From an uncultured bacterium (GTDB lineage: Bacteria > Cyanobacteriota > Cyanobacteriia > Cyanobacteriales > Microcystaceae): a DNA stretch of 64,000 nt. Below, one piece after another: positions 29,567-52,742 of the stretch. The number at the start of each line of letters is the position of its first letter. Position 1 is the stretch's first letter. Position numbers and translations under genes: made by a program. The stretch covers positions 48,576 to 112,575 of the forward strand of contig CAZUVR010000002.1 of NCBI GenBank assembly GCA_964623815.1, given 5' to 3'. The notes beneath the pieces are model-generated. The model saw only the letters and a list, made by a program, of their open reading frames with translations. It did not search any database and was not told the DNA's origin.

Positions 29567-29652
29567 GGGGGTGTGGCGGAATGGTAGACGCTGCGGACTT
29601 AAAATCCGTTGGGCCTTATAAGCCCGTAAGAGTTCAAGTCTCTTCACCCCCA
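29567..29652 (+). tRNA. tRNA-Leu (anticodon UAA), intronless
   Basis: The cloverleaf was folded by hand. The acceptor is GGGGGTG/CACCCCC with discriminator A. The anticodon loop cuUAAaa is flanked by the gcgga/tccgt stem. A long variable arm (tgggccttataagcccg) marks a type II tRNA. The T-loop is TTCAAGT. CCA is not encoded. Confidence 0.9.
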
Positions 29653-37854: not shown

Positions 37855-39351
37855 TCAAAACCTGACACCGTCTGAAATTCTTCTCATGACTGACTTAGGA
37901 TTGCTATAGTCCTGTAGCAATGAGAGGATTTCCCGACGGCCGTACAGTTCGGCTAAAGATACGGCGGTGTCTCCATTGCGATCTCTAACGGTTACGTCGG
38001 CCCCCGCGTCGATTAAAAAGCGTGCTATTTCGATCGCACCCTGTTCACAGGCTAGAAGGAAGGGCGTACTACCATAGGTTCCGGGGGCGTTGACATCTGC
38101 TCCCCCAGCTACTAAAGCCCGAACCGCGTCGGCCTGTTTATTAACTACGGCTAAATTCAGTGTTGTACATTCCAGGTTATCTTTATGATTTGGGTCGGCA
38201 CCCCCTCGCAACAGGGTTTTAACTATATCAGTTTCTCCCGTAGCGGCCGCAACCATCAAGGCCGTCCTACCCAGGGTGTATCCCATACTCTCGATCGTTT
38301 CTGGGCCCGTATGTTCTAATAAAGAGCGGAAATTGTTTTTAACTTCCCCCGGCGAGTCCGTTAGATTCGGATCGGCCCCCGCATTCAATAACATTTCCAC
38401 TACGGGCAAGTGTCCACCTTTGGCAGCTAACATTAACGTGGTTCGGTTTTTCGTTTGACGACGGGAATCGCGCCAGTTCACCTGCGCGCCCCGTTGCAAA
38501 CAATCTCGCACCCCGTCAACGTCACCTTTTTCGGCGGCTAGTAAAAGTTCCTGATTCACATCGATGCTGATTTCTTTGACCCCGAAGCGCACCAGAACTT
38601 TCAATACATCGGTACTTGTGTTTTGTCGCGCTCGATCGTAGGCCGATAAACCTTCGCCGTCTCGACGGTAGGGATCGGCTCCAGCTTCTAGTAGGGAGGC
38701 TAAAGCTTCGGCGTGACCTAGACGGGCGGCGATTATAACCGGGAAAGTATCGAGGGCCATTGTCTCCCTCGCTCTAATATTAGGCACAAAAGTATTAGCA
38801 TCCGCTCCCGCATCTAACAAGGCCCCGATTAATATGGGGCAACCTTGAGCCGCAGCCGTCGCTATAGGTGGAACGTGACCGAATAGGGAAGTGAGATTCG
38901 GGTTCGCCCCGGCGGCTATTAGTTTCAGAGCGATGTCGGTATGACCTTGTTCGATCGCGCTTAGAAGTGGTGTGCCGATAGTATTGCCATAATCCACATC
39001 GGCACCTGCGGCGATCAATAATTCAACGATTTCCGTGTACCCACCCCGCGCGGCCGCTTGCAGGGGTGAACCTGAATAGGTTTTAACGTTTAAATCCGCC
39101 CCTTTTGCGATCAATGTCTGCACCGCCTTAACGCGTCCGGTAAGAAGCACCCAAACCAGGGAGTGTTTTATTTCTGGGTCTTCGGCGCCGGCTTCGATCA
39201 AAGCGCATTTTATATCATCGGCTCCGTGGGGCACCGCTTCATAGGCGCTCTTGCCTCCTCGACGGGCGTTAGCATCAGCCCCGGCGGCCAGTAATTCTTC
39301 AACCTGCGATAAATTTTTCGATGCGATCGCCGCAAATAGCTGCTCATCCAT
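37855..39351 (-). CDS. ankyrin-repeat protein
   Basis: 498 aa with at least 12 consecutive 33-aa ANK repeats (G.TPLH.AA..GH..IV.LLL..GADVN pattern throughout). Confidence 0.9.
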   Translation of the reverse strand: MDEQLFAAIASKNLSQVEELLAAGADANARRGGKSAYEAVPHGADDIKCALIEAGAEDPEIKHSLVWVLLTGRVKAVQTLIAKGADLNVKTYSGSPLQAAARGGYTEIVELLIAAGADVDYGNTIGTPLLSAIEQGHTDIALKLIAAGANPNLTSLFGHVPPIATAAAQGCPILIGALLDAGADANTFVPNIRARETMALDTFPVIIAARLGHAEALASLLEAGADPYRRDGEGLSAYDRARQNTSTDVLKVLVRFGVKEISIDVNQELLLAAEKGDVDGVRDCLQRGAQVNWRDSRRQTKNRTTLMLAAKGGHLPVVEMLLNAGADPNLTDSPGEVKNNFRSLLEHTGPETIESMGYTLGRTALMVAAATGETDIVKTLLRGGADPNHKDNLECTTLNLAVVNKQADAVRALVAGGADVNAPGTYGSTPFLLACEQGAIEIARFLIDAGADVTVRDRNGDTAVSLAELYGRREILSLLQDYSNPKSVMRRISDGVRF

Positions 39352-39614: not shown

Positions 39615-41822
39615 ATGCTATCTAAAAATCGCAAATATTCGCAGGAATTGTTACCTACGCTCCTCCCGACGCTCGGAGTACCCATCATAACTTTACTGGT
39701 AAGTTCTGGTAATTTACCGATCGCTATCGTCGCCTGGATAGCTTCTATAGCAGCTACGGTTATAGCTGACAATCTTAAAGATAAAAATTTAGGTAATCTA
39801 GTCAGGGAGTTACAAACAAAGTCGGAAATATTGCAAGATAAACTGAAGAATTTTCAAAGGCAAGAGGTCTTATCTTCGGAGTTAGCGCAGTTAACAGTTA
39901 AAGTTGAGAGCTTAAAATCGGATGAAGCAGAACTAAACCAGAAGTTAACTGATAAAACTAAGTTATTAAATGAAACTAGCGGTAATTTAACTCACTTACA
40001 GGCACAATATACGAAGTTAACAGAGACAGTTAATTTACTAGAAGATAAGGAGAGCGAATTAAAGCGGCGCATCGAGGAAATTAACCGCAAGAATCCCGAT
40101 TTAGCCACAAAAGAGCGACTTTATCGGGATGTGGAAGAGTTAAAACAGAGTAAAGCCAGCCTAGAAGCGCAACTGAAGGTGTTAGAGCCGAAAGTCGAGA
40201 GTTTAGAGAAACTTCAATCGGAGTTAATCGGGGTTGAGGGGCAGTTAACGGCTAAGAGGGCGCAGTTAGAAGAATTGCAGGTTAAGGTGAGCGATTACGA
40301 GAAGAAGGCGACGGAGTTGGAATTATTCCGCAGTACCTACGATGCCATTGTAATCGATCGCACCGAGCAGGAAAATCGAATCAAAACCCTACGCCCGGAA
40401 GTAGAAGGCTTAGAGTTACAAAAACAGCAGATACTACAGGCGATTAGGGAAAGTCAAATCGATTATCTAGCGGCCGAAAGAAATAGGGAAGAAATTCGCC
40501 GACTCGCCGTAGAGTTACGCAACAAACAGGAGGAGGTAGCTAAAGCCGAGAGGGAAATTAATCAATTAACTGGGGTTAGAGAAGCCGAAGAAAGGGAAAA
40601 ATCTAGACTCGAAACCGAGGTGAGAAATTTACAAAGACGGCTACGGGAATTGAAACAGGAAATTGACACCGAAGAACAAAGCGCCGATAAAGCCCTACAA
40701 TCTTTATCGTCGCCCCTATGGAATAATCTACCGCAACAGCAGAAAACCCTCAGCGAAACAGAATTTCTTAACGGCTTCCGCAGTTATCTACAGTCTCAAG
40801 GGTTAAGCTTTCCCGAGAGAATTATCCGCGCTTTCCACACTTCATTAAAAGTGCAGGATATTTCTGCCCTAGTCATACTAGCTGGGATTAGTGGCACTGG
40901 TAAAAGTGAACTACCTCAGAGATACGCCGACTATGCGGGGGCGCAAAAGTTAACCTTAGCGGTGCAACCCCGCTGGGATTCACCCCAAGATTTACAGGGA
41001 TTCTATAACTATATAGAGAAGAAGTATAAACCCACAGATTTAATGCGGGGATTGTACCAATATCAGCATGATAACAAGATGAAAGATAGGCTCGTCCTAG
41101 TGTTGTTAGACGAAATGAATCTAGCGCGGGTTGAATATTACTTTAGCGACTTCCTCTCGAAACTAGAAACTAGAAGGGCGCAGACAACTTATCTAGATTT
41201 AGATGTAGGTAGTTTGCCTTTACCAGAAAATCGCAGGCGATTGGCGATACCAGCACAGTTTCTCTTTGTGGGTACTATGAATGAAGATGAGACTACTCAA
41301 TCATTATCGGATAAAGTTCTCGATCGTGCCAACGTCCTCACCTTCGGTAAGCCCTCCGCTTTAAAACTGCGGGAAGAATTCACACCCGGTAATCCCTTCT
41401 CGGATGATAAAGGTTATGTTTCCTACACCTCGTTTCGCGGGTGGTTACAAACACCTCAACCGAATTCGGATTTAGTCGGGAAGATACGGAGCTATCTCGA
41501 CCAAACTAACGCCATCATGGAGAGAATCGGCCACCCCTTCGCCCACCGCGTCTATCAAGCTATCACAGCTTATGTGGTTAACTATCCCGAGATTTATAAA
41601 GAAGAAGTATTTAAGCAGGCTTTAGCCGATCAATTCGGACAAAAGTTATTACCTAAATTACGAGGCTTGATGCTCGACGGTAGTTGTAGCGAGGAATTAA
41701 AGAAATTAGAGACCATAATAAAAGATTTGGGTGATCAATCATTAATCAGCGCATTTGAAAACGCCCAAAAAGGCAGATTTGGACAGTTTCAATGGCGTGG
41801 TTTAGTTTACGGGGAGGAATAA
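39615..41822 (+). CDS. membrane-anchored, coiled-coil McrB-like AAA+ (AAA_5) NTPase
   Basis: 735 aa. The N-terminal TM helix is LGVPIITLLVSSGNLPIAIVAWIASIAATVIA. About 330 aa of heptad-rich coiled coil follow. The C-terminal module has Walker A ILAGISGTGKSEL, an McrB-type Walker B and sensor LVLVLLDEMNLARVEYYFSDFLSKLE, and FLFVGTMNEDETTQSLSDKVLDRANVLTF, which corresponds to the McrB 'GTMN..D' motif. Confidence 0.75.
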   Translation: MLSKNRKYSQELLPTLLPTLGVPIITLLVSSGNLPIAIVAWIASIAATVIADNLKDKNLGNLVRELQTKSEILQDKLKNFQRQEVLSSELAQLTVKVESLKSDEAELNQKLTDKTKLLNETSGNLTHLQAQYTKLTETVNLLEDKESELKRRIEEINRKNPDLATKERLYRDVEELKQSKASLEAQLKVLEPKVESLEKLQSELIGVEGQLTAKRAQLEELQVKVSDYEKKATELELFRSTYDAIVIDRTEQENRIKTLRPEVEGLELQKQQILQAIRESQIDYLAAERNREEIRRLAVELRNKQEEVAKAEREINQLTGVREAEEREKSRLETEVRNLQRRLRELKQEIDTEEQSADKALQSLSSPLWNNLPQQQKTLSETEFLNGFRSYLQSQGLSFPERIIRAFHTSLKVQDISALVILAGISGTGKSELPQRYADYAGAQKLTLAVQPRWDSPQDLQGFYNYIEKKYKPTDLMRGLYQYQHDNKMKDRLVLVLLDEMNLARVEYYFSDFLSKLETRRAQTTYLDLDVGSLPLPENRRRLAIPAQFLFVGTMNEDETTQSLSDKVLDRANVLTFGKPSALKLREEFTPGNPFSDDKGYVSYTSFRGWLQTPQPNSDLVGKIRSYLDQTNAIMERIGHPFAHRVYQAITAYVVNYPEIYKEEVFKQALADQFGQKLLPKLRGLMLDGSCSEELKKLETIIKDLGDQSLISAFENAQKGRFGQFQWRGLVYGEE

Positions 41823-41823
41823 A

Positions 41824-43368
41824 TTGCGCTACTATCACAATCTCTTCGCCTATCTCAACGGTAAAGTTGCCTCAGAGGGGAAAGTTTTAGAGGGCAAAAA
41901 TCGGCCCGTTTTAGAAGTTGAGGGAAGCATTTCCCATCACCCCGATTTAATCAATCGAGGCGGGGGAGTCTACGAGATAGGTTTTCCCTACCTGACTCCG
42001 GAAGACTGGCAACACCATCACCAACAGTTACAACAGGAGATTATTTTCTCCCTCGATAACGCCCATCACAGTCTATCGGTTACGGATGAAGTTATGGATA
42101 GCGGGGCCATTGAAGATGAGGAAGAATTACAAACATGGCAGAGAGAAGGGCGACAACATCTTTTAGATGATTCCGTAGCTTTGCTATTGCAAAATTTTAA
42201 CGAGTTGTTGAAAAGGGGCAGGAAGGAAGAGGGAATTTATCTCTATGAGTTGCTTTCCTATCTGAAGAATTTCAGTATCGCCGAGGCAAGCTTACCCCTG
42301 ATACTGAGTTTAGAGAGACGCTATGAATTAGCGGTGAAGTTACGGCAGATAACGCCGAAGTTACGGCATCAACTGCGACGGCAGGCGGAATCTATACCCA
42401 TAGGGCGCATTCAGGAGATGGATAGTTACTGTCTGCGCGACTATACCCGTCGCCCAGGAAATACGCCCGAGGAAAAAGCCGGCTCGCGGGGGGAATTGAT
42501 GGGCATACAACGCTATCAAGATTACAACACCGTGGAGAATAAATTTCTTGTTTACTTCGCGGCTAAATTACATCTAGAGGGTTTTCGCTATTTAGAGGCT
42601 GGTAATCACAGTTACACCGATAGCGTCAAGAAATTCCTACAGACTATCGATGTGTTTCGGGGGGATTGGATAGTCAGGAGTATCAACAGCAGAAATTTTC
42701 AATTCACCCGGCCTAATTACGTCCTACTCCAAAATCCTATCTATAGTAGTTTCTATCGGGCCTATCTAGATTATGTGGCTGGGCGCTCGGAAAAACAAGG
42801 CGTGTGGAGTGGGCGTAATCGTTTACTGGGAAACGTGGTTTATCTCTCTCTCCTGGCTGCCATCTTAAATTTCAACGGTGTTACCCACCCCGTAGACGTA
42901 TATATACCAATTAAGTCGTCACCGGATTACGGTGATTATCTGCCGAGAGATAATCCAGTGAAGACTCGGGTAACTATATTTCTGCGGCGCTGGGTTTACG
43001 AAATCGAGGTTAGCAAATCTTCCGATTACCGGGAGGGTGATTATCTTTTAAATATCGAAAGACAGGATTCCCATTCTCTCGCGTTAGAGAGTGAGGAATA
43101 CAAGTTACCGATTTGGGTGTTTTGGTATGGGCCTTCAGAGGAGGTTATAGCCTCGGCGCTTACTTATATGGAGGCGCGGAAGGATATTTACCGACTCGGC
43201 TTAATCTTCTCCCTCGGCGCGGGCGAAGGGGAAGTTAATCCTATATCGCCCTGTCTGTGGTGGTGTGAGATGCCTCTGCCGAATGGGGAGAGGGGCTTTC
43301 TCGATGGGGTTAATTTCTTCTCTGTCAAGGTGATTAAAAATTTGCTTGAGTTTCTCTATGGGGGTTGA
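41824..43368 (+). CDS. hypothetical protein, second gene of the McrB-like operon (possible McrC-like partner)
   Basis: 514 aa starting 2 nt after the ATPase stop (TTG start). No clear motif. A candidate PD-(D/E)xK-like D...ExK near the C-terminus (IERQD...SEEYK) is speculative. Confidence 0.5.
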   Translation: MRYYHNLFAYLNGKVASEGKVLEGKNRPVLEVEGSISHHPDLINRGGGVYEIGFPYLTPEDWQHHHQQLQQEIIFSLDNAHHSLSVTDEVMDSGAIEDEEELQTWQREGRQHLLDDSVALLLQNFNELLKRGRKEEGIYLYELLSYLKNFSIAEASLPLILSLERRYELAVKLRQITPKLRHQLRRQAESIPIGRIQEMDSYCLRDYTRRPGNTPEEKAGSRGELMGIQRYQDYNTVENKFLVYFAAKLHLEGFRYLEAGNHSYTDSVKKFLQTIDVFRGDWIVRSINSRNFQFTRPNYVLLQNPIYSSFYRAYLDYVAGRSEKQGVWSGRNRLLGNVVYLSLLAAILNFNGVTHPVDVYIPIKSSPDYGDYLPRDNPVKTRVTIFLRRWVYEIEVSKSSDYREGDYLLNIERQDSHSLALESEEYKLPIWVFWYGPSEEVIASALTYMEARKDIYRLGLIFSLGAGEGEVNPISPCLWWCEMPLPNGERGFLDGVNFFSVKVIKNLLEFLYGG

Positions 43369-44824
43369 AATGTTTTTAGAAGATATGGGGCAATCTTTAC
43401 CCCTTAATCCGACTCCGCCTTTACAGTTACTGTGGAAAACTTGGAGTGAGGGGAGTGTATTTCTAGAAACTCCTTCGCCGGGGCAACTCAAAACTATTAT
43501 TCCCTCCCTGCCCCTGAGTCACTATCAAGAGACGGCCTTAAAGTTATGTCTCCATAGCCCGCTGATGGTAATTGAGGGGGTGCCGGGTAGCGGGAAAACT
43601 CGTCTCGGGAAAGTCTTGTGTGAAGGTTTGCGGCAACAGCATAAAAAAGTTTTGCTATTGAGTCACCATGAAGCTACTCTATCAGCTTACAAAATTCGAT
43701 CGCGCGGTGTGCCGGAGTCATCGCCCTTCCCCCGTATCGACATGGATTTTCTACCTCCCCACCTACTGCCGGATTATCTATTAAGGGCTTTACGGAAGGG
43801 GGGAAAGTTAGAGAAGTGGGTGGCAATCCTCCGCGATGGTAGCCAGGAAATCGATTCCCTGTTAGCTTCCGAATTCCCTGACATTCCTAAAGCGAGATTA
43901 AATTTACTAAAACTGCGGCTTCAGAATTCATTACCCCTACTGGAAAAACAATTAGCCCTACAACAGCAATCGGCGCGGTTATCGGATGAGGCTTTAGCGT
44001 CTCTGTTATCCGAGTGCGGGGCGTTACCTATCTCGACAACGGTAGCCCAATTTTTTCAACCGGCAAATAAAGAAGCCCAGAAAGCTACTTTTGATTGCAT
44101 CATCGTGGAGGAGTCGGAATATCTAGAGTGGCCCGAATTGGCTTCGCTGGCGACTATGACTGATAAGCTAATCCTCTTAGGTGACTTAAACATCGAGCGC
44201 GTTTATCGGCAGAGGAAAGATTTTTCAGAGTTTGCCCCTTTTGAGTGGTTGAGTCAATATTTATGCCCCGCCTATCGCTATCGACTACCGCAGCAGTTTC
44301 GCCTACATTTTAGTATCGCTCGGCCGATTATCGGGAGTCTTTACAGGAATACGGTTATCGAGACGGCATACAGACACGATAGCCTCCATCTTCCCGTATT
44401 ATTCCATAGATGGGGGTGGCAGGAGGTGCGATCGCTCCCCGCCGACGATATAAATACTATCGAGGGCCGGCGTTTACTCCAATACCTGACGAGGCTTGAT
44501 GGTATCCCTTCCGACGCGATAGGAGTATTAACCTTTACCACCCGTCAGAAGCAATGGTTACGGGAAAACCTCCCCGCCGGATGGGAAGGGGTTTTTATAG
44601 GTAATATCGAGGATTGGGCGGGGAAAGAGATACCCATACTCCTCATCAGTTGCGTGGGTTATCCCGAAAAGTTGAAGCGGCAGGATTTAAAAATCGCCCT
44701 AACCCGTTGCCGGGATTATCTAATTCTTTTCGGTAACGGTAAACAGTGGCTAAAATTCGTCTCGCCGTTACAATCTCTGCTGACGGCTGAGGAAATACAA
44801 AGAGAGAGAGAGGTGTTGATATGA
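43346..44824 (+). CDS. compact Upf1-like SF1 helicase-family protein (AAA_11/AAA_12)
   Basis: Motif I is EGVPGSGKT. Motif II is degenerate, IIVEESE in place of DEAsQ. Motif III is LILLGD, motif IV-like is YRYRLPQQFR, motif V is GNIEDWAGKEIPILLISCV (compare TVD.FQG.E.D.IILS.V), and motif VI is LKIALTRCRDYLILFGN. Only 492 aa. The likely ATG at 43370 overlaps the upstream stop (tgaaATG). Confidence 0.7.
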   Translation: MSFSMGVEMFLEDMGQSLPLNPTPPLQLLWKTWSEGSVFLETPSPGQLKTIIPSLPLSHYQETALKLCLHSPLMVIEGVPGSGKTRLGKVLCEGLRQQHKKVLLLSHHEATLSAYKIRSRGVPESSPFPRIDMDFLPPHLLPDYLLRALRKGGKLEKWVAILRDGSQEIDSLLASEFPDIPKARLNLLKLRLQNSLPLLEKQLALQQQSARLSDEALASLLSECGALPISTTVAQFFQPANKEAQKATFDCIIVEESEYLEWPELASLATMTDKLILLGDLNIERVYRQRKDFSEFAPFEWLSQYLCPAYRYRLPQQFRLHFSIARPIIGSLYRNTVIETAYRHDSLHLPVLFHRWGWQEVRSLPADDINTIEGRRLLQYLTRLDGIPSDAIGVLTFTTRQKQWLRENLPAGWEGVFIGNIEDWAGKEIPILLISCVGYPEKLKRQDLKIALTRCRDYLILFGNGKQWLKFVSPLQSLLTAEEIQREREVLI

Positions 44825-46485
44825 AATTCGAGATAACTTTATCGGGGGTTTTCCAACGTCTGCCCGTAGATGATGAAAAGAAGGCGGCGAGTTTAGAAGA
44901 TTGGCTGAGTTCGATACGGGGGGCGGCGCAGGAAGTTAGGGGGGCTAACCTATCCAATCTCTACCGTGATTTCGGTTTGGGTTTTCTCCCGGGCCGTAGC
45001 GTCGAGAAATTATTGAAACAGACGGATAGGGGCGATAACCTGTACTTACTAGATGGGCTTAAGCGTCTTTATCCTCTAGCCCAATATCCTAACCCTGGTT
45101 TCTGCCTCTACGAATATATATTCACCGGGGAAGGTTTTTGCTTGCGCCTCTCTCCCGATGACTCTCAATTACCCGCGTTTACCTCTGGGATTGTCGAGGG
45201 CAGTTACCGCCTCGTCATCGATAACTTCTCTCACCCCGGTATCTCCGTAGAATATTTAAAAAATTGGTATAGACTAATAAAAATATTTTGGGATTATTCA
45301 TCCTCCGTACAGTTAGAGAGGGCGATGATGTTTTCGGGGGGAGAGATATATTATTCGCCGCCCGCTCATCAGGAAATAAAAGTGATTGCTTCCGTCTCCG
45401 AGTTAAGCCCTACCGTACAATCGGCCCTATCTTATTTACGGGGTAACGTTGCCTGGGATGGGTTATCATCCCAGAGTCGGGATTTGATTAAAGAGTATCG
45501 AGAGAGATATTATTTTCCTCCGGTTTCCTTAGAGTTACCACCGAGTTTAGATATGGATACGGGGGAGGCCCAGCATACTTTAATTGTAGGGAAAGGGCAG
45601 AGGGAAAAGATAGAAGCGATCGTATCTTCGGCGGAGAGATTCCTACTGGTATCGAGTCATATTATAGAAGATAGAGCGATCGTAGAATTAATCTGTGATA
45701 AAGCTCTTACCCTCCCTGGCGGTGTCTGGATATTAACCGATACGAGAGACAGACTCATAGATAAAGTAGAATCCTCCCCCGCAGAAACCCGAGTCGATAG
45801 ATACGAACAAACTAACGTCAGGAAGCGAGAGTGTTTGAACTTATTATTGGAAGCCGGAGTATCTATTAGAGGCGGCGCATTCCATCTCAAAACCATCATC
45901 TCCGAAAATGAGGCTTATTTAGGCTCGTGTAATTTGACTCGGGGCAGTTTAGATATTAACGGCGAGTCGGGCTTAATCTGTCGGCATACCCAAACCCATC
46001 AGGGTTTATACCGTTATTTCCTCAAGTGCTGGCAACACCTCGCTCGACACGAAATCTGCCCGACTCCCGGCGGATTACTACGGCGAGATTTACCCCGCGC
46101 TGCCCCCATAGCCTTCGGTAGCGAAACCCTTCTCACCCCCGCTCAATACAAGTCGGATTTAAAAAAATCTCTCATAGAAGGTAATCAACCGGTAACTATA
46201 TATACTCGCGGCTTGAGTATGGATGAGGAATTAGAATCGTTACTGCGATTCCGCCGCCCGAGGATATATATGGATGTGGAGGGATACAAAGAAGAAAAAA
46301 CCTTCCCCGTTTATTATCGCCCGAAACTTCACGCCAAGATTACCCTCATCGGTGACGACATCGCCTATATAGGAGGCGTTAACTTTCAATTCGACCGCGA
46401 CAGTTTGAAGTTAATCGATTTGATGTACAAAACCACCGACACATCAGAAATCCGGCAAATTCAGCAAAACCTACCAAACCTGTAA
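44821..46485 (+). CDS. phospholipase-D family (HKD-motif) nuclease-like protein
   Basis: 554 aa with two divergent HKD motifs, FHLKTIISENEAYLGSCNLT and LHAKITLIGDDIAYIGGVNF (H.K, then acidic residue, then G[SG].N). Its start overlaps the helicase stop in an ATGA. Confidence 0.65.
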   Translation: MKFEITLSGVFQRLPVDDEKKAASLEDWLSSIRGAAQEVRGANLSNLYRDFGLGFLPGRSVEKLLKQTDRGDNLYLLDGLKRLYPLAQYPNPGFCLYEYIFTGEGFCLRLSPDDSQLPAFTSGIVEGSYRLVIDNFSHPGISVEYLKNWYRLIKIFWDYSSSVQLERAMMFSGGEIYYSPPAHQEIKVIASVSELSPTVQSALSYLRGNVAWDGLSSQSRDLIKEYRERYYFPPVSLELPPSLDMDTGEAQHTLIVGKGQREKIEAIVSSAERFLLVSSHIIEDRAIVELICDKALTLPGGVWILTDTRDRLIDKVESSPAETRVDRYEQTNVRKRECLNLLLEAGVSIRGGAFHLKTIISENEAYLGSCNLTRGSLDINGESGLICRHTQTHQGLYRYFLKCWQHLARHEICPTPGGLLRRDLPRAAPIAFGSETLLTPAQYKSDLKKSLIEGNQPVTIYTRGLSMDEELESLLRFRRPRIYMDVEGYKEEKTFPVYYRPKLHAKITLIGDDIAYIGGVNFQFDRDSLKLIDLMYKTTDTSEIRQIQQNLPNL

Positions 46486-46489
46486 TCCT

Positions 46490-48805
46490 ATGACATACCT
46501 TTATCATCTCGACTCCTATATCGATTTTTATGCCGATACCGCGATATACAACCAGGAAAACCTCAGCCCGTCTGCCCAATCCTATAAAAATTTTCTCACA
46601 GGTAAGGGGCAATCTGGATATAGATGGGATACGGGGCTATCGGAAGAATTATCCATCGCCGATAACGGGCTGAAAAGATTAGGGATAGAGATAGGGCAAG
46701 ATGGAAGTAATCGGCGTTTATACGTTATCCCGGATAATATCAATCTGCTGGCGTTAAGAAACCTTATCGGCATCGGCGACACTTATATATATAAGACTGC
46801 TTATTATTACTGGAATAATCTCAGGCAAATACTCAAGTTTGCCGATTTAAACAAACCCGTAACTTTTATCGATTTGAATAGTCTCGGCGGCGATTGTGTA
46901 TCTTCGATTAATTTCGCGCGTCATCAAAGTTGTGAGTATCCTATTCCTATCCTCGATAACCGTAATAAAGAAACAGAAAATCACAATTTCTCGGCGCGGG
47001 AGATTTATAATAACATCCTGGAAGAGTTAGCCAAAGAAATCCTCAAGCCTTATCATTCCAAATTGCAGAGTTATGAAACTTGCCAGCAACATCTAGTTAC
47101 CGGGTGGAAGAAGCGAAAATTATTACAATCGTTGAAATTAGATAGCCCATCGATAGTTATTCCCTGCGAAATCCTGCAAGGCGAGAAAGTTTATTACAAG
47201 GCTTTGCCCTTAGCGAAAGAGAGAATAGAAAAAACTATACTCAATCATATTAAACCAGCTTTAGAGGAATTGCGATCGCTCTCCTCAAACCCGGTGGTTA
47301 TCAATCCCTATGAGTGTTTACATCTCTCACCTCGGGAAAATATAACCGTTTTACCCTTTAGATGTCTCAATTTCCCGCAGGTTTGGCAATCGAGGCGAGA
47401 AAAATACTTTCCCTTATTCGGACAGTATTTAGAACAAATAGAATTTGAGGTTAAAGATGAAAATAAGCAATCTTTATGGCTCAAGCTTTTCTCAGAAGAT
47501 GAGCAAGAGAATATTTTTTATGAAGGAGATGGACGGGAAAAAACATTTATAGGTCAGATTAAAGAAAAAGGGCAAAATTATTTTAAGCTAAAATCTAAAA
47601 TATCACGGTTGCCTATAAAAATTAACGGTAAATCTTACAAGATAAATGGAGAGGAACAAGTATATAAGATAAGCCATACCAACGAAATAAAAGAAAGTGA
47701 ATCTATAAATATCCGTATAGAATTTATAATTAATGTTGGCTCAACACCTAAATTAAAAGCAACTAATTGTAGTGACAATTTAGAAATTCAATCAGAACTA
47801 GTCACTATACCTAAGCTGACATTTATTCCCTTAGAGCGTTTAAAAGAAGCGAGGGATAAAAAATTATCTTCTGAACAAGTTGAGAAAATAGAATCTGTAA
47901 TTAGCTTAGTGGGCGAGTTGGCAAGCAGATCTAGAATTTCCAATTTAAGCATTCAACGAGATGACAAAATAAGAGAAATATATACTATTATCAAACCTAT
48001 ATATGATAAATTGAGAAAAACTAACAAAAAAGAATCAGATATTTTATCAAATCTTAATAACAAGTGTTATCCTTTACTTGAAGATTTATTAAATAATATT
48101 TATCTTCAAGATATTGTTAATTTAATTAGAGATTATATGAGCATCACAACTATTGATATTTCCACCGATCTCAGAAAGAAAATATCTGACCATATGAATA
48201 TACTTTTCATTTTTATAGGCAAACTATATCAATTTTCTAAAGTTTTGCCTTTAGATTATTTTCATGAAACTAGCAATATAAACAGTGGTATCAAGATATA
48301 CAAGAGAGAATATTATTATTTTTTAGCTAGATCTAGCTACACGGAGGAGCGACAAATAAAGTATTTTAAACTATTCAACATGAAAGACTGGACAGGGAAA
48401 TTTTATTATTATAATAAACACTACTTATGGGGTTATGGACGTGTTTTACTTTGGTATTTTAACTATAATTACGATAATATTAAAAATTCTATATCGTATT
48501 ATCAGCATTTTCAAGATTTATGTAGTTATTTAATAAGGCATCAATCAAGCTTAGAAAAAGAGAACAAAACCAATGCTTTTCTTTGTTTAATATATTTATT
48601 AAATTTTAGAGAAAAAGATTTAGGATTTTGCACTTTAAATACTAAAGAATATAGATTGGGGCAAGAAGTGATTAATAGATATACAACAGAAAAAATTACT
48701 TTGAGAGCGGTATCTGAAAAAAAAGCTCTCAATCAATATTTTCAAGAACTTTTAGAGGGAACGATGAGCGAGGCAGAGATCGGAGGTTTATTAGAATTGG
48801 ACTAA
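46490..48805 (+). CDS. hypothetical large protein; 3' half markedly AT-rich
   Basis: 771 aa starting 5 nt after the PLD gene stop. No recognisable motif. The C-terminal ~450 aa are K/N/I/Y-rich and coincide with a drop in GC (~47.4-48.8 kb). Confidence 0.55.
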   Translation: MTYLYHLDSYIDFYADTAIYNQENLSPSAQSYKNFLTGKGQSGYRWDTGLSEELSIADNGLKRLGIEIGQDGSNRRLYVIPDNINLLALRNLIGIGDTYIYKTAYYYWNNLRQILKFADLNKPVTFIDLNSLGGDCVSSINFARHQSCEYPIPILDNRNKETENHNFSAREIYNNILEELAKEILKPYHSKLQSYETCQQHLVTGWKKRKLLQSLKLDSPSIVIPCEILQGEKVYYKALPLAKERIEKTILNHIKPALEELRSLSSNPVVINPYECLHLSPRENITVLPFRCLNFPQVWQSRREKYFPLFGQYLEQIEFEVKDENKQSLWLKLFSEDEQENIFYEGDGREKTFIGQIKEKGQNYFKLKSKISRLPIKINGKSYKINGEEQVYKISHTNEIKESESINIRIEFIINVGSTPKLKATNCSDNLEIQSELVTIPKLTFIPLERLKEARDKKLSSEQVEKIESVISLVGELASRSRISNLSIQRDDKIREIYTIIKPIYDKLRKTNKKESDILSNLNNKCYPLLEDLLNNIYLQDIVNLIRDYMSITTIDISTDLRKKISDHMNILFIFIGKLYQFSKVLPLDYFHETSNINSGIKIYKREYYYFLARSSYTEERQIKYFKLFNMKDWTGKFYYYNKHYLWGYGRVLLWYFNYNYDNIKNSISYYQHFQDLCSYLIRHQSSLEKENKTNAFLCLIYLLNFREKDLGFCTLNTKEYRLGQEVINRYTTEKITLRAVSEKKALNQYFQELLEGTMSEAEIGGLLELD

Positions 48806-48874: not shown

Positions 48875-49519
48875 ATGATGGCTCAAACTTTACTAAAATT
48901 TCCTTCTAGGACAGTCTTAACCGGGGTGCGGTGGCAAACTTATCAAGGACTGCTGAGCGATTTAGCGGAGAATCCTGGTAAAAGACTAACATACGATCAA
49001 GGCATATTAGAGATCATGACTCCACTGCCGGAACACGAAATTAATAAAGGCTTCTTAAGCAGGCTGGTACAGACAGCGACTGAGGTATTGGGGTTAGAAG
49101 TCTTAAGCCTCTGTTCTACAACCTTAAGCCGGGAGGACTTACAGAAAGGGATTGAACCCGATGAGTGTTATTACATTACGAACGAGGCTCTAGTAAGGAA
49201 TAAGACCTATTTTAATTTTAGCGTCGATCCGGCTCCCGACTTAGCGATCGAAGTAGATATTACCAGTAGTTCTCTCAATCGGCTAGGAATTTACGCCGCT
49301 TTAGAAGTCAGTGAATTATGGCGATTCGACTGCGAGAATTTATCGATTTATTGTTTGCAATCTGGAAATTACCGAGAGGGGGAAAAGTCTAGGATTTTAC
49401 CGATTCTTTCCAAAACGATAATTTTGGAGTTTTTAAGAAAAAGGGGCGAAATGGGAGAAAATGCTTTACTTAAAGAGTTCCGTCAACGGTTACAAACTAT
49501 TGACCAGGAAACCAGATAA
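48875..49519 (+). CDS. Uma2-family (DUF820) putative restriction endonuclease-like protein
   Basis: 214 aa with a PD-(D/E)xK-like core in the Uma2 arrangement (LTYDQGILEIMTPLPEHEINKGFL...DLAIEVDITSSSLNRLGIYAALEVSELW). Confidence 0.7.
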   Translation: MMAQTLLKFPSRTVLTGVRWQTYQGLLSDLAENPGKRLTYDQGILEIMTPLPEHEINKGFLSRLVQTATEVLGLEVLSLCSTTLSREDLQKGIEPDECYYITNEALVRNKTYFNFSVDPAPDLAIEVDITSSSLNRLGIYAALEVSELWRFDCENLSIYCLQSGNYREGEKSRILPILSKTIILEFLRKRGEMGENALLKEFRQRLQTIDQETR

Positions 49520-49555: not shown

Positions 49556-50278
49556 CTAGGGAGAATTAGCTTGATTTGTTAATACCCACTTAAGAAATGC
49601 GTCTCCTATTCCTGGTTGTCCGTCTTGATTAACTTTATTTTTATATTCGTTCAAGATTATCCATTGATTATCTATAACTATAGTGCCGTTTATTTGTATT
49701 TCTCTCAAGTATTGTCCAGTGCGTAACTTACACTCACTGGTAACTTGAGGACAATCTCTCCCATTAGCGGCGATTAAAACATTAGTATCAATGATGATAG
49801 CCAATTCTCCTCTACGGCCTACATCCTGTGGTTTTTCTCCTGCCCAAGAGTAAATTCTTTTTGGATACTCTTTCAGAGGGCCGAGATAATAGAGTTTTTC
49901 AAAGGCTTGCTCATAGGCTAAAGTGAAGAAGGGTAAAAAATCGGCATTTTGAAAGTAATTAACTGGTTGGTTTGGGAATCCATAATGTTTAAGTGGTGGT
50001 GGTAGGGTTAGATATTTATCTGTGCTACTTATAATTTTATAAACCTCTGATTTAAGTTCGTAATTTAATAAATTATATTCTGATTTTTTCTGTTCGCCTG
50101 TATTTAAAACCCGTTGACGATCGCTTGATTCAACAGTCTGTTTTAAAAGCAGAAAGAATTGGATGATGCTAGATTTTCCCGAGCTGTTATTTCCGAAAAA
50201 TCCAGTGATATTGGCGAAGGAGATATTTCCGGTATCTTGCCAAGATTTAAAATTTTTAAATTTGATAGTTTTAAACAT
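49556..50278 (-). pseudogene. truncated AAA (RecF/OLD-like, AAA_15-type) ATPase N-terminal fragment with PIN-like tail; probable gene remnant
   Basis: 240 aa. The N-terminus IKFKNFKSWQD...ITGFFGNNSSGKSSI is the Walker-A region of AAA_15/OLD-type ATPases, but no Walker B or C-terminal domain follows. The tail AIIIDTNVLIAANG resembles a PIN-domain N-terminal strand. Too short for either full domain. Confidence 0.4.
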
Positions 50279-50404: not shown

Positions 50405-51712
50405 ATGATACCCTCCTCCCTCTGTTACTCGCTCCTGTTACTAAGCGCCCTAATGGCCTTCCTAATCGCCGCGGTGAGCAACTTAAATCTCGGCCTCTTA
50501 GCATTAGCCCTTCTCGACGCGATTATCGTAACCCTCACCATCATTGACATACTAAGGGTGAGAAATCAAACCATAGGAGTTAAACGCTTATCCAACACTC
50601 GCCTCTCAGTAGGTAGAGACAACCCGATGACACTTCAGGTAACAGGTAGTAGATACGAAGCCGAAGTAATTATTAAAGATGGTTATCCCCGAGAATTCCA
50701 CGTCTCGAAAGACGCTTTCTGGATTAAAGTCAAAGCTCACAGTAAATCCTGCCTAACCTATACTATAAAACCCGATCGCAGGGGTCGAGTCACATGGGAT
50801 ACTATTTCTGTCCGCCAGAGAGGGAGATGGGGGTTAGGCTGGTACGCATGGCAAACCCACACCGGCGAAGAAGTGACAATTTACCCGGATTTAATGACCA
50901 TACGCGCTCTATCAATCCGCCTCACCCTAGAAAACACCGGAAGTATGAGACGAGCGCGACGACTCGGCACCGGTACGGAATTCGCCGAGTTAAGGGAATA
51001 CAACCGGGGGGATGACTTACGCTTCATGGATTGGAAGGCTACAGCCAGAAGAAACACCCCCTTTATCAGAGTCTTAGAACCAGATAGGGAACAATCCCTG
51101 ATCATACTCCTAGATAGGGGACGTTTGATGACCTCGCGGGTGCGGGGTTTATTACGCTTCGACTGGGGTTTAAACGCCGCCCTCTGCCTCGCTACCGCCG
51201 CCCTGCATCGCGGTGATAAAGTAGCAGTGGGCGTATTCGATCGAGAGATGACCACATGGATACCCCCTCAGCGCGGTCAATCCCATCTCGGACATCTGAT
51301 CGAGCAACTCTCACCCCTACAACCGGTTTTATTAGAGCCAGATTATGCCTCTGCCGTCTCCTCCCTCGTCAATCACCAATCTCGCCGCGCCCTGGTGGTA
51401 TTGATCACCGATATTGTCGATGCCACCGCCTCCTCGGAATTATTGGGAGCCATGACCCGATTAGCCCCCCGCTATCTCCCCTTTTGCGTCACCCTCCGCG
51501 ATTGTGTAGTGGATACTATCGCTTGCACAGAGAGCGACGAGGCTCGCAAAGCCTATGAAAGAGCCGTCGCTTTAGACCTATTATCCCAACGGGAGAACGT
51601 CTTCGCCCGCCTCAAGTCCAAGGGGGTGTTAGTATTGGACGCTCCCGCCGACGCTATCAGTGAAACCCTAGTCGATCGCTATCTGACCCTGAAAGCTCGC
51701 TCTCTTTTGTGA
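50405..51712 (+). CDS. DUF58 domain protein (vWA-like, MoxR-associated family)
   Basis: The N-terminus has two TM helices. The DUF58 signature FAELREYNRGDDLRFMDWKATARRNTPFIRVLEPDREQSLIILLDRGRLM is present. Confidence 0.8.
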   Translation: MIPSSLCYSLLLLSALMAFLIAAVSNLNLGLLALALLDAIIVTLTIIDILRVRNQTIGVKRLSNTRLSVGRDNPMTLQVTGSRYEAEVIIKDGYPREFHVSKDAFWIKVKAHSKSCLTYTIKPDRRGRVTWDTISVRQRGRWGLGWYAWQTHTGEEVTIYPDLMTIRALSIRLTLENTGSMRRARRLGTGTEFAELREYNRGDDLRFMDWKATARRNTPFIRVLEPDREQSLIILLDRGRLMTSRVRGLLRFDWGLNAALCLATAALHRGDKVAVGVFDREMTTWIPPQRGQSHLGHLIEQLSPLQPVLLEPDYASAVSSLVNHQSRRALVVLITDIVDATASSELLGAMTRLAPRYLPFCVTLRDCVVDTIACTESDEARKAYERAVALDLLSQRENVFARLKSKGVLVLDAPADAISETLVDRYLTLKARSLL

Positions 51713-51713
51713 T

Positions 51714-52742
51714 ATGCTAGAACAAAATAGCCATACCCGTGCCGATAGTTTAAAAGCAGGTCATAATCGTAACCGAATAAAGATGTTACCGCCTCCGGGG
51801 AAAGCACCTTACGGTTATCGCCGGGGTAAAGATAAATACATCATCGATAAAAGTACCGCCCCAGTCGTCAAAGAATTTTTCGAGCATTTTCTTCGTTACG
51901 GTTCCCTACGAGGGGCAGTGAAATTTTTAGAGAAGCGTTTCGGTAAAAAGATAGCCCTGTCAACCGGTAGAAACTGGCTGACGAATCCCGTGTATAGGGG
52001 GGATTTACAGTATAAAACCAGGGATATTATCACCGATACCCACGCGGCGCTAATTTCGCGGGAAACGGCGGCGGCGATCGATCGACTCCTCCGCAGTCAT
52101 CGAAAACTAGCGCCCAAAACCTCCAGCGCTAAACGCAGTCTCGCGGGCTTAGTTTTCTGCACCACCTGTCAATCGCCTTTCACCGTCACCAAGGTCAAAC
52201 CCAAGGGTAAAAAAACCGAATACCTATATATCCGCCCGACTCAATGCCCGCGTAACCCCCATTGTAGAAGCCTCAATTATCAATCCGTACTCGGGAAGGT
52301 TATCGAAGCTATCTGTAAGGAATTACCGCTTACAGTCTCCAAATTAACCCTACCTAATTTAGAAAATGTTAGGAATCAAATAATAGAAGAGATCAGAGAG
52401 AAAGAAGCGATAATTAATCGTCTTCATCAATTGCAAGATGAGGGAATATTAGATGAAGCTAGTAAAGATTTAAGGCAATATAATTTAAAAACCGAGATAG
52501 CCCGATTACAGCTACAATTTAACGGGTTGCCTCCTGGTGATTTGAAAATCATCACTCAATCTGTTTGTTTACCGCGTTTCTGGGAAGATTTATCGGAAGA
52601 AGAGAGACGGTTTTATTTTCGGGAGTTTATCGAGAGAGTAGAGATAGATTATGGAAATAGTGAAAATTATCAATTGAGAATTATTTTTGTTTTCGAGAGT
52701 ATGATTGAACCACAGAGACACAGAGGGCACAGAGGAGATTGA
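51714..52742 (+). pseudogene. large-serine-recombinase remnant (Recombinase domain + zinc ribbon + coiled coil, catalytic resolvase domain absent)
   Basis: GKAPYGYRRGKDKYIIDKSTAPVVKEFFEHFLRYGSLRGAVKFLEKRFG...GRNWLTNPVYRGD matches the 'Recombinase' domain. LAGLVFCTTCQSPF...RPTQCPRNPHC is the Zn-ribbon. No Ser-nucleophile resolvase domain precedes it, because the DUF58 gene ends 2 nt upstream. Confidence 0.55.

What the first reader, a model, noticed from the sequence alone, without database searches (positions are those of the whole stretch)
39615..48805. Five-gene translationally coupled operon: membrane-anchored McrB-like NTPase + partner + Upf1-like helicase + PLD nuclease + large unknown — candidate undescribed defence system
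Five same-strand ORFs abut or overlap at every junction (41822/41824, tgaaATG at 43368/43370, ATGA at 44821-44824, a 5-nt gap at 46485/46490). They combine nucleic-acid-targeting modules in an arrangement I do not recognise as any named system. The modules are a McrB-type AAA+ core (GTMN..D, LLDEMN...SKLE motifs), an SF1 Upf1-like helicase and a two-HKD PLD nuclease. Neighbours are a Uma2 endonuclease, a truncated AAA/PIN gene and a serine-recombinase remnant, which is the genomic context typical of defence islands.
Basis: partly seen in the sequence, partly recalled or inferred. Interest (0 to 1): 0.88.

Follow-up and report, generated by a model that had tools for sequence, protein, structure and literature searches.

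The report
Type III-C CoCoNuT defence operon
The five-gene operon is real, but it is not undescribed: it is a typical cyanobacterial example of the Type III-C "CoCoNuT" system, an McrBC-derived predicted anti-virus system that was defined by computation in 2024 and has not, in the papers I searched, been tested in the laboratory.

Summary
Five intact + strand ORFs (39615-48805) abut or overlap at every junction, and the domain calls are right: an AAA_5/McrB-like NTPase, a DUF2357/McrC partner, a UPF1-like SF1 helicase and a two-HKD PLD protein.

The "undescribed system" reading fails. The cassette matches the Type III-C CoCoNuT of Bell et al. 2024 (PMC11090510) gene for gene:
- CnuB: coiled coil plus an McrB GTPase carrying the diagnostic NxD motif, here GTMNEDE.
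- CnuC: McrC-like, with a nuclease fold that has lost its catalytic motif.
- CnuH: UPF1-like helicase.
- CnuE: two PLD domains.
Its AF2 model (pLDDT 85.8) shows an Hsp70-like NBD/SBD plus HEAT-like repeats.

Three of the paper's own Type III-C representative proteins come from cassettes that are syntenic homologues of this one: GCE96187.1, MBD2152459.1 and MBD2218434.1. The B-C-H-E-D order holds in Crinalium, Arthrospira and Calothrix and in 25 of 43 further, near-exclusively cyanobacterial loci.

One small addition: most CnuB homologues carry an N-terminal two-helix hydrophobic hairpin that the paper's text never mentions.

I take the function to be defence, possibly directed at RNA. That is inferred; only a Type II relative has been tested. 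Novelty: already known. Interest: low.

The parts
39615..41822 (+). cnuB: a 735-aa McrB-like NTPase with an N-terminal extension.
   Evidence: Pfam AAA_5 covers aa 420-571 at E 2.1e-7. PADLOC PDC-M26A matches at 8e-44. The protein is 49% identical over 95% of its length to P0082, which carries accession GCE96187.1, the paper's Type III-C CnuB representative.
39648..39767 (+). CnuB N-terminal hydrophobic hairpin: two predicted transmembrane-like helices at about aa 12-30 and 33-51.
   Evidence: 17-residue Kyte-Doolittle means reach 1.9 and 2.3. 95 of the 120 closest homologues have an N-terminal 19-residue window of at least 1.6. This rests on hydropathy only. No dedicated topology predictor was run.
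39777..40739 (+). CnuB long coiled-coil region, about aa 55-375.
   Evidence: The region is rich in E, L, K, Q and R and has only 5 Pro and 6 Gly in 321 residues. It gives weak matches to the coiled-coil arms of SMC, Rad50, JetC and LmuB.
40752..41819 (+). CnuB McrB-type GTPase domain. Walker A GISGTGKS lies at 40884-40907, Walker B LLDEMN at 41103-41120, and the NxD signature GTMNEDE at 41271-41291.
   Evidence: GTMNED and GISGTGKS are present in all 120 closest homologues. The domain is 62-71% identical across 22 relatives. Bell et al. define the CoCoNuT-containing branch by the NxD variant, usually followed by E or D.
41824..43368 (+). cnuC: a 514-aa McrC homologue. It has an N-terminal all-beta domain (about aa 1-90), a DUF2357 helical bundle (about 100-350) and a C-terminal alpha/beta domain (about 355-514) with no conserved (D/E)xK.
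43370..44824 (+). cnuH: a UPF1-like SF1 helicase, 484 aa from the ATG at 43370 (an alternative TTG lies at 43346). Motifs: Walker A GVPGSGKT at 43577-43600, motif II IIVEES at 44099-44116, QQFRLH at 44291-44308 and IALTRC at 44693-44710.
   Evidence: Pfam AAA_30, AAA_12 and AAA_19 score above their cut-offs, and AAA_11 scores below its cut-off. The best PDB sequence matches are ZNFX1 at 3.4e-7, UPF1 at 3.7e-6 and NAM7. The helicase motifs are conserved in 25 relatives.
44821..46485 (+). cnuE: a 554-aa protein with two PLD (HKD) domains and an uncharacterised N-terminal region of about 260 aa. HKD1 (HLKTIISE...GSCN) lies at 45883-45933 and HKD2 (HAKITLIGDD...GGVN) at 46330-46383.
   Evidence: Pfam PLDc_2 covers aa 265-404 at 9.6e-17 and PLDc covers 503-522 at 1.4e-6. 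The His and Lys of both motifs are conserved in 26 relatives. The protein is 34% identical over its full length to the CnuE of locus L005. That L005 protein falls in the same 90% cluster as MBD2218434.1, the paper's Type III-C CnuE representative.
46490..48805 (+). cnuD: a 771-aa protein with an Hsp70-like NBD (about aa 1-300), a beta-rich SBD-like region (about 310-440) and HEAT/ARM-like helical repeats (about 448-771). It has no sequence-profile match in Pfam, PADLOC, NCBIfam or PHROGs.

Best explanation
The operon is a complete Type III-C CoCoNuT (coiled-coil nuclease tandem). This is an McrBC-derived, Type IV-restriction-like system that cyanobacteria carry as a horizontally mobile five-gene cassette, cnuB-cnuC-cnuH-cnuE-cnuD.

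Proposed mechanism. All steps here are inferred from homology, and none has been shown for this subtype.
1. CnuB presumably forms an McrB-like hexameric GTPase ring. Its long coiled coils project from an N-terminal hydrophobic hairpin that may tether the complex to a membrane.
2. CnuC inserts into the ring as McrC does and stimulates GTP hydrolysis. It has lost its own PD-(D/E)xK active site, so it probably acts as an adaptor or a nucleic-acid binder rather than as the nuclease.
3. Cleavage is delegated to the CnuH-CnuE module. A UPF1-like 5'-3' helicase would load on single-stranded RNA or DNA and feed it to the two-HKD PLD nuclease.
4. CnuD, with a degenerate Hsp70-like NBD/SBD and HEAT repeats, probably acts as the sensor or targeting subunit. 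Bell et al. suggest it binds RNA or ribosome-associated factors.
5. The expected outcome is restriction of invading (phage or plasmid) nucleic acid, possibly RNA, with a possible fall-back to host-RNA damage and dormancy.
For: Membership:
- All five components have the published domain content. They are NxD CnuB with a coiled coil, McrC-like CnuC without a conserved (D/E)xK, UPF1-like CnuH, two-PLD CnuE and Hsp70/HEAT CnuD.
- The paper's own Type III-C representative accessions map onto syntenic homologues of this cassette. GCE96187.1 is P0082, MBD2152459.1 is P0249, and MBD2218434.1 is P0254.

One functional unit:
- The B-C-H-E-D order holds in Crinalium, Arthrospira and Calothrix and in 25 of 43 further loci. 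These span Nostocales, Oscillatoriales, Microcystis, Geminocystis, Spirulina, Pseudanabaena and a Prochlorococcaceae MAG. Junctions mostly abut or overlap.

Accessory and mobile:
- The flanks differ in every genome examined, and IS630 or IS66 transposases lie nearby in two of them.
- Several relatives carry degraded copies.

Defence role:
- CnuB matches the PADLOC defence-candidate profile PDC-M26A at 8e-44.
- Candidate defence genes lie next to the cassette: Uma2 matching PDC-S17, and an HEC-03 remnant.
Against: - No experiment on Type III-C turned up in my literature searches. The defence role, the substrate (RNA or DNA) and every mechanistic step are inferred.
- The CnuB GTPase domain has no sequence-detectable match to solved McrB structures, with either a single sequence or a 23-sequence profile. 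Its McrB assignment therefore rests on Pfam AAA_5, the signature motif and the McrC-like partner.
- I did not test the wHTH domain of CnuE or the helical insertion of CnuH structurally.
- The immediate upstream neighbours (ZnuABC, DUF4253, ankyrin) are not defence genes.
- PLD nucleases of other defence systems are mostly thought of as DNases, so RNA targeting is the weakest link in the chain.
Confidence: 0.9

Rival explanations
1. It is a previously undescribed defence system that merely shares modules with McrBC.
For: None of the five proteins gets a named-system assignment from PADLOC or NCBIfam. CnuB hits only a 'candidate' profile (PDC-M26A), and genes 2 and 5 hit nothing. Gene 5 has no Pfam, PHROGs, PADLOC or NCBIfam match at all.
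Against: The exact five-component architecture, its NxD signature and its cyanobacterial distribution were published as Type III-C CoCoNuT. The paper's representative proteins are homologues from syntenic cassettes. Gene 5 folds as the published CnuD does.
Confidence: 0.03
2. The cassette has a non-defence, housekeeping or developmental role at the membrane in cyanobacteria. Examples would be RNA quality control, ribosome-associated surveillance, or DNA processing during natural transformation or conjugation.
Against: The distribution is patchy. The degenerate-pattern scan of the 185,579-species collection recovered 43 loci, which is a lower bound. Flanks differ in every genome, and transposases lie nearby in two. 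Decayed or internally deleted copies occur in Raphidiopsis, Stigonema, Rhizonema and Tolypothrix. CnuD evolves fast, at 25-36% identity against about 50% for CnuB. These are the marks of an accessory, conflict-driven cassette.
Confidence: 0.05
3. The locus is an inactive relic in this genome: a cassette still intact in its ORFs but no longer expressed or functional.
For: The neighbourhood holds decayed elements, namely an HEC-03B/A fusion remnant and a recombinase lacking its catalytic domain. Relatives do decay. cnuC starts with TTG.
Against: All five ORFs are full length compared with their relatives. All catalytic and signature motifs are intact: Walker A and B, NxD, the helicase motifs and both HKD motifs. 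The junctions keep the coupled arrangement, with purine-rich stretches just upstream of the cnuC and cnuH starts.
Confidence: 0.02

Closest known systems
Type III-C CoCoNuT (CnuB-CnuC-CnuH-CnuE-CnuD), Bell et al., eLife 2024 (PMC11090510)
   Same: The five components and their domain content are the same. They are a coiled-coil NxD McrB GTPase, an McrC homologue with an N-terminal beta domain, DUF2357 and an inactivated nuclease fold, a UPF1-like helicase, a two-PLD effector, and a separate Hsp70-like/HEAT protein. There is no TerY-P module, and the hosts are cyanobacteria. The paper's representative proteins come from syntenic homologues of this cassette.
   Different: Nothing differs in architecture. 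Sequences have diverged from the representative cassettes: about 49% identity for CnuB, 36-41% for CnuC, 35-37% for CnuH, 33-34% for CnuE and about 30% for CnuD. The N-terminal hydrophobic hairpin of CnuB is present here and in most relatives. It is not mentioned in the paper's text or in the supplements held in this library.
Type III-A and Type II CoCoNuTs
   Same: They share the NxD coiled-coil CnuB, a CnuC without an active nuclease, and a CnuH-CnuE helicase-effector pair. In Type III-A the Hsp70/HEAT unit is fused to CnuC as CnuCD. A Type II-like locus has experimental anti-phage activity.
   Different: In those types the effector is a HEPN RNase rather than PLD. CnuH carries SmpB-like and RelE-like N-terminal domains. 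A TerY-P (VWA/PP2C/kinase) triad is usually present. None of these features is found here.
Canonical McrBC (E. coli K-12, Thermococcus gammatolerans)
   Same: It has an AAA+ GTPase with the MNxxD-type signature next to a DUF2357-containing partner. The best structural matches of the CnuC model are the two solved McrC structures.
   Different: McrB has NxxD rather than NxD, and a small N-terminal DNA-binding domain in place of a hydrophobic hairpin and a roughly 320-residue coiled coil. McrC carries an active PD-(D/E)xK nuclease. McrBC has no helicase, PLD or Hsp70-like partner. No sequence-level match to solved McrB or McrC was detected.
CoCoPALM systems (the FtsB-like TM plus coiled-coil McrB fusions mentioned by Bell et al.)
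   Same: They have an NxD-clade McrB homologue with a transmembrane segment followed by a coiled coil.
   Different: CoCoPALMs are linked to SipA-like signal peptidase and pilus-assembly genes, and coiled coils are fused to both their B and C proteins. Here the partners are CnuH, CnuE and CnuD, and no signal-peptidase family matched among the five genes or the neighbours scanned.

Membership tests
Type III-C CoCoNuT | CnuB GTPase carries the shortened NxD signature (usually followed by E or D) in place of NxxD. | tested here: met
   GTMNEDE lies at aa 553-559. GTMNED is present in all 120 closest homologues.
Type III-C CoCoNuT | A long coiled coil is fused N-terminally to the CnuB GTPase domain. 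| tested here: met
   The roughly 320 residues between aa 55 and 375 are rich in E, L, K, Q and R and poor in Pro and Gly. They match the coiled-coil arms of SMC, Rad50 and JetC. No dedicated coiled-coil predictor was run.
Type III-C CoCoNuT | CnuB is homologous to the published Type III-C CnuB representative. | tested here: met
   P0082 carries accession GCE96187.1, which the paper lists as the Type III-C CnuB. It matches the window protein at E 2.3e-194, 49% identity and 95% coverage. I did not build a phylogenetic tree.
Type III-C CoCoNuT | CnuC is an McrC homologue with a DUF2357 domain. | tested here: met
Type III-C CoCoNuT | CnuC keeps a PD-(D/E)xK-like fold but lacks the catalytic motif. 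| tested here: met
Type III-C CoCoNuT | [quoted passage not shown] | tested here: inconclusive
   The model shows an all-beta N-terminal domain of seven strands in aa 1-88. I did not compare that domain on its own with known folds.
Type III-C CoCoNuT | [quoted passage not shown] | tested here: met
   Pfam AAA_12, AAA_30 and AAA_19 match. The best PDB sequence hits are ZNFX1, UPF1 and NAM7. The UPF1-type motifs are conserved.
Type III-C CoCoNuT | CnuH has a large helical insertion after Walker A. | tested here: inconclusive
   About 165 residues separate Walker A (aa 70-77) from motif II (aa 244-249). Their structure was not predicted.
Type III-C CoCoNuT | CnuE carries two PLD-family nuclease domains. 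| tested here: met
   PLDc_2 matches at 9.6e-17 and a second PLDc at 1.4e-6. The HxK of both motifs is conserved in relatives.
Type III-C CoCoNuT | CnuE has an N-terminal (distorted) elongated wHTH domain. | not tested
The only support is homology: 34% identity over the full length to the CnuE of locus L005. That L005 protein falls in the same 90% cluster as MBD2218434.1, on which the paper called the wHTH.
Type III-C CoCoNuT | A separate CnuD protein has an Hsp70-like NBD/SBD plus HEAT-like repeats. | tested here: met
Type III-C CoCoNuT | There is no TerY-P (VWA / PP2C / Ser-Thr kinase) triad. | tested here: met
   No PP2C or kinase family matched among the ten flanking ORFs scanned. A DUF58/VWA_2 protein lies 1.6 kb downstream, beyond Uma2 and an opposite-strand remnant, and it is not TerY-like by any hit.
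Type III-C CoCoNuT | The system is found primarily in Cyanobacteriota. | tested here: met
   42 of the 43 loci found with the CnuD profile carry cyanobacterial record titles, and the remaining one is titled Candidatus Obscuribacterales. The named CnuB homologues are all cyanobacterial.
Canonical McrBC (Type IV restriction) | NxxD GTPase signature, an N-terminal DNA-binding domain on McrB, and an active PD-(D/E)xK nuclease in McrC. | tested here: not met
   The signature is NxD, not NxxD. The N-terminus is a hydrophobic hairpin plus a coiled coil. CnuC has no conserved (D/E)xK.
Experimentally validated anti-phage defence system | Protection against phage or plasmid when the system is expressed. 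| not testable with these tools
   Only a Type II CoCoNuT-like locus has been tested. I found nothing for Type III-C in the literature searches.

The most novel reading that the evidence does not exclude
The conserved N-terminal two-helix hydrophobic hairpin on Type III-C CnuB is often glycine- and small-residue-rich in relatives. It is present in 95 of the 120 closest homologues, including the paper's own representative GCE96187.1. It is not mentioned in the published description's main text, nor in the preprint's held supplements. If it is a real membrane anchor, this subtype would work at the cytoplasmic or thylakoid membrane. It could intercept nucleic acid as it enters the cell. Alternatively the hairpin could act as a membrane-perturbing abortive-infection effector once the GTPase fires. 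Either would give this CoCoNuT subtype a spatial logic that has not been proposed for the family.
Probability: 0.25. Interest if true: 0.45.

Novelty: already known. Interest (0 to 1): 0.22.

Why it matters
As a discovery it matters little. The five-gene architecture, its name and its cyanobacterial distribution were published in 2024.

It has some practical value:
- It is an intact, motif-complete Type III-C cassette that could be cloned for the first experimental test of this subtype.
- It shows that current annotation resources still miss the system. PADLOC 2.0 and NCBIfam give no system call, and CnuD has no profile match in any of the four libraries searched.
- It adds one small point, that most Type III-C CnuB proteins begin with a predicted membrane hairpin.

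Tried and rejected
1. The word-indexed homologue search for gene 5 returned only the query itself, both as a single sequence and as a 4-sequence profile. This gave a false impression of an orphan gene. Exhaustive phmmer found 83 hits, and direct BLASTP against the fifth genes of relatives gave E 3e-80 to 3e-90.

I solved this by using hits for CnuD and cluster look-ups for CnuC.

3. PDB sequence searches found nothing significant for a CnuC profile, the CnuB GTPase domain as a single sequence or a profile, or CnuE.

4. I first read the 1066-aa Tolypothrix protein P0215 as a CnuC-CnuH fusion. BLASTP rejected that and showed CnuC joined to CnuD residues 184-771.

5. I considered that the low GC of gene 5 marked a separate insertion. 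I rejected this because CnuD is the lowest-GC gene of the cassette in all 28 related loci tabulated.

6. The promoter and terminator scan gave nothing above the shuffled expectation. Rfam and tRNA scans found nothing in or next to the operon.

7. A search for 'PDC-M26' in the paper library found nothing. The Type III-C sheet of the paper's locus table is truncated in the held copy, so I could not check whether this exact genome is listed there.

Full report
**1. Observation**

ORF listing confirms five + strand ORFs at the stated positions: 39615-41822, 41824-43368, 43370-44824 (or from a TTG at 43346), 44821-46485 and 46490-48805.

Reading the junctions shows the following:
- cnuB/cnuC: TAA, then A, then TTG.
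- cnuC/cnuH: TGA, then A, then ATG.
- cnuH/cnuE: an ATGA overlap.
- cnuE/cnuD: a 4-nt spacer.

Purine-rich stretches sit just upstream of the cnuC and cnuH starts.

Pfam supports each domain call: AAA_5 in gene 1, DUF2357 (the McrC N-terminal domain) in gene 2, AAA_30/AAA_12/AAA_19 in gene 3, and PLDc_2 plus PLDc in gene 4. Gene 5 matches nothing in Pfam, PADLOC, NCBIfam or PHROGs.

**2. What it is**

Gene 1 carries GTMNEDE. This is an N-x-D version of the McrB N-x-x-D signature, followed by Glu, and it sits behind a roughly 320-residue coiled coil.

That combination defines the CoCoNuT branch of McrBC systems (Bell, Sahakyan, Makarova, Wolf & Koonin, eLife 2024, PMC11090510). The paper's Type III-C subtype, 'primarily found in ... 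Cyanobacteriota', has five components:
- CnuB: coiled coil plus an NxD McrB GTPase.
- CnuC: a beta-sandwich, DUF2357 and an inactivated PD-(D/E)xK fold.
- CnuH: a UPF1-like SF1 helicase.
- CnuE: a distorted wHTH plus two PLD domains.
- CnuD: a separate Hsp70-like NBD/SBD plus HEAT-like repeats.

It has no TerY-P module. Four of the window's five genes fit at once, so the test was whether the 'large unknown' gene is CnuD.

**3. Gene 5 is CnuD**

The word-indexed search found only the query itself. Exhaustive phmmer over 1.84 billion representatives found 83 hits, about 35 of them full length at 25-36% identity. BLASTP against the fifth genes of the Crinalium and Arthrospira cassettes gave 28-31% identity end to end, at E 3e-80 and 3e-90.

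An AF2 model built on a 35-sequence alignment reached pLDDT 85.8 and pTM 0.70. It has an alpha/beta N-terminal third, a beta-rich middle and an all-helical C-terminal 320 residues.

**4. The other components**

CnuC:
- Its C-terminal alpha/beta domain also matches BpuSI (3s1s), the same entry the authors report for the 'inactivated PD-DxK domain' of Type III-C CnuC.
- Across 25 sequences only one Asp (D406) is conserved in that domain, and there is no conserved (D/E)xK.

CnuH:
- Its best solved relatives by sequence are ZNFX1, UPF1 and yeast NAM7.
- The helicase motifs are conserved: GxxxxGKT, DLVIVEE, LVLFGD, QFRLHPEIA, TxxEWxGxE and ALTRG.

CnuE:
- Both HxK motifs are conserved.

**5. Direct link to the published family**

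Three of the paper's own Type III-C representative proteins come from cassettes that are syntenic homologues of this one:
- The representative Type III-C CnuB, GCE96187.1, is my hit P0082. It is 49% identical over 95% of the window protein, at E 2.3e-194.
- The representative CnuC, MBD2152459.1, is P0249. It is 36% identical in alignment A4.
- The representative CnuE, MBD2218434.1, is P0254. It is in the same 90% cluster as the Calothrix NIES-22 CnuE, which is 34% identical to the window protein over its full length.

**6. Conservation and mobility**

The same five genes in the same order, with overlapping or abutting junctions, occur in Crinalium epipsammum PCC 9333, Arthrospira platensis NIES-39 and Calothrix brevissima NIES-22.

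A genome-collection scan with the CnuD profile found 43 loci. By record title, 42 are cyanobacterial and one is Candidatus Obscuribacterales. In 25 of them all five genes gave hits in B-C-H-E-D order. Most of the rest are too short upstream to say, and a few are degraded.

The flanks differ in every genome examined, and transposases lie nearby in two. This is what I would expect of an accessory, horizontally moving cassette.

In the window itself, the upstream genes are ZnuABC, a DUF4253 protein and an ankyrin-repeat protein. The downstream genes are:
- Uma2, which matches PADLOC candidate PDC-S17.
- A 240-aa remnant joining HEC-03B-like and HEC-03A-like pieces.
- A DUF58/VWA protein.
- A large-serine-recombinase remnant without its catalytic domain.

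This is a modest defence-island context, and a partly decayed one.

**7. Mechanism (inferred)**

By analogy with McrBC, CnuB should form a GTP-dependent hexamer that CnuC activates. CnuC has no active site of its own, so cleavage most likely falls to the CnuH-CnuE helicase and PLD-nuclease pair. CnuD would act as a sensor or targeting subunit.

Bell et al. argue for RNA targeting. For Type III-C they infer this only from the presence of CnuD, so I regard DNA versus RNA as open.

The only experimental support for the family is a Type II-like locus from Pseudomonas aeruginosa. It protects against ssRNA phages and against one DNA phage.

**8. What is not in the paper**

CnuB begins with two hydrophobic segments at about aa 12-30 and 33-51. 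95 of the 120 closest homologues, including GCE96187.1, have such a segment.

The main text of the paper contains no occurrence of 'membrane', and 'transmembrane' appears only in connection with FtsB and EssC. The preprint supplements held in this library also do not mention it for Type III-C.

This is a small annotation-level addition, and it rests on hydropathy alone.

**9. Verdict**

The locus is an ordinary, intact member of an already described and computationally defined system. No experimental test of that subtype turned up in my searches.

Noticed in passing
window 46490-48805; related loci L003-L040: cnuD has a GC content of 0.329, against 0.43-0.48 for the other four genes and 0.457 for the whole window. 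In all 28 related loci tabulated, cnuD is also the lowest-GC gene of the cassette, by 1-17 points. It is the fastest-evolving component too. The low GC is therefore a property of the gene family and not a sign of a separate insertion here.
   Followed up: yes
protein P0215/P0218 (Tolypothrix spp., 1066 aa): This is a single ORF that joins CnuC (about aa 1-480) to CnuD residues 184-771. It looks like an internal deletion that removed cnuH, cnuE and the start of cnuD. It superficially recalls the CnuCD fusion of Type III-A. It occurs on 5 contigs, one of them a 9-Mb genome, so it is stably inherited.
   Followed up: partly
window 49556-50278 (- strand): This 240-aa ORF matches PADLOC HEC-03B over only part of that profile (positions 150-249 of 458, at 7e-47). 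It then matches the start of HEC-03A (residues 160-236, at 2.3e-17). It also has the N-terminal P-loop of the AAA_15/AAA_21/OLD-type ATPases. It looks like a deletion-fused remnant of a two-gene candidate defence system. I found no PIN match.
   Followed up: partly
window 48875-49519 (+ strand): The Uma2-family protein just downstream of cnuD matches the PADLOC single-gene defence candidate PDC-S17 at 3.1e-44. It lies in the same AT-rich stretch as cnuD.
   Followed up: no
window 50405-52742 (+ strand): A DUF58/VWA_2 protein (435 aa) ends 1 nt before a 342-aa ORF. That ORF has Recombinase and Zn_ribbon_recom domains but no match to a catalytic resolvase domain, so it is a decapitated large serine recombinase. 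This may mark the edge of an old integrated element.
   Followed up: no
window 37855-39351 (- strand): A 498-aa ankyrin-repeat protein is transcribed divergently from cnuB. It matches PADLOC PDC-M72A at 6.3e-57 and the 'Ankyrin' and MzaA profiles. These matches may only reflect the repeats.
   Followed up: no
loci L011 (Raphidiopsis brookii D9), L035 (Stigonema MAG), L047 (Rhizonema MAG), L046 (Waterburya MAG): These hold degraded Type III-C cassettes: truncated cnuC or cnuH, a missing cnuH, or only a C-terminal cnuD fragment. The system is lost repeatedly.
   Followed up: partly
The word-indexed protein search returned only the query for CnuD, even when given a 4-sequence profile that included proteins present in the collection. 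The exhaustive HMMER search found 83 hits. The family's K/N/I/Y-rich, low-complexity composition may swamp the word index, though I did not test this. An 'orphan' result from that tool should not be trusted for proteins of this kind.
   Followed up: yes
window 29567-29652 (+ strand): The window has a single tRNA gene (tRNA-Leu, anticodon TAA) and no other Rfam gathering-score hit. It lies 10 kb upstream of the operon, and no link to the operon is evident.
   Followed up: no
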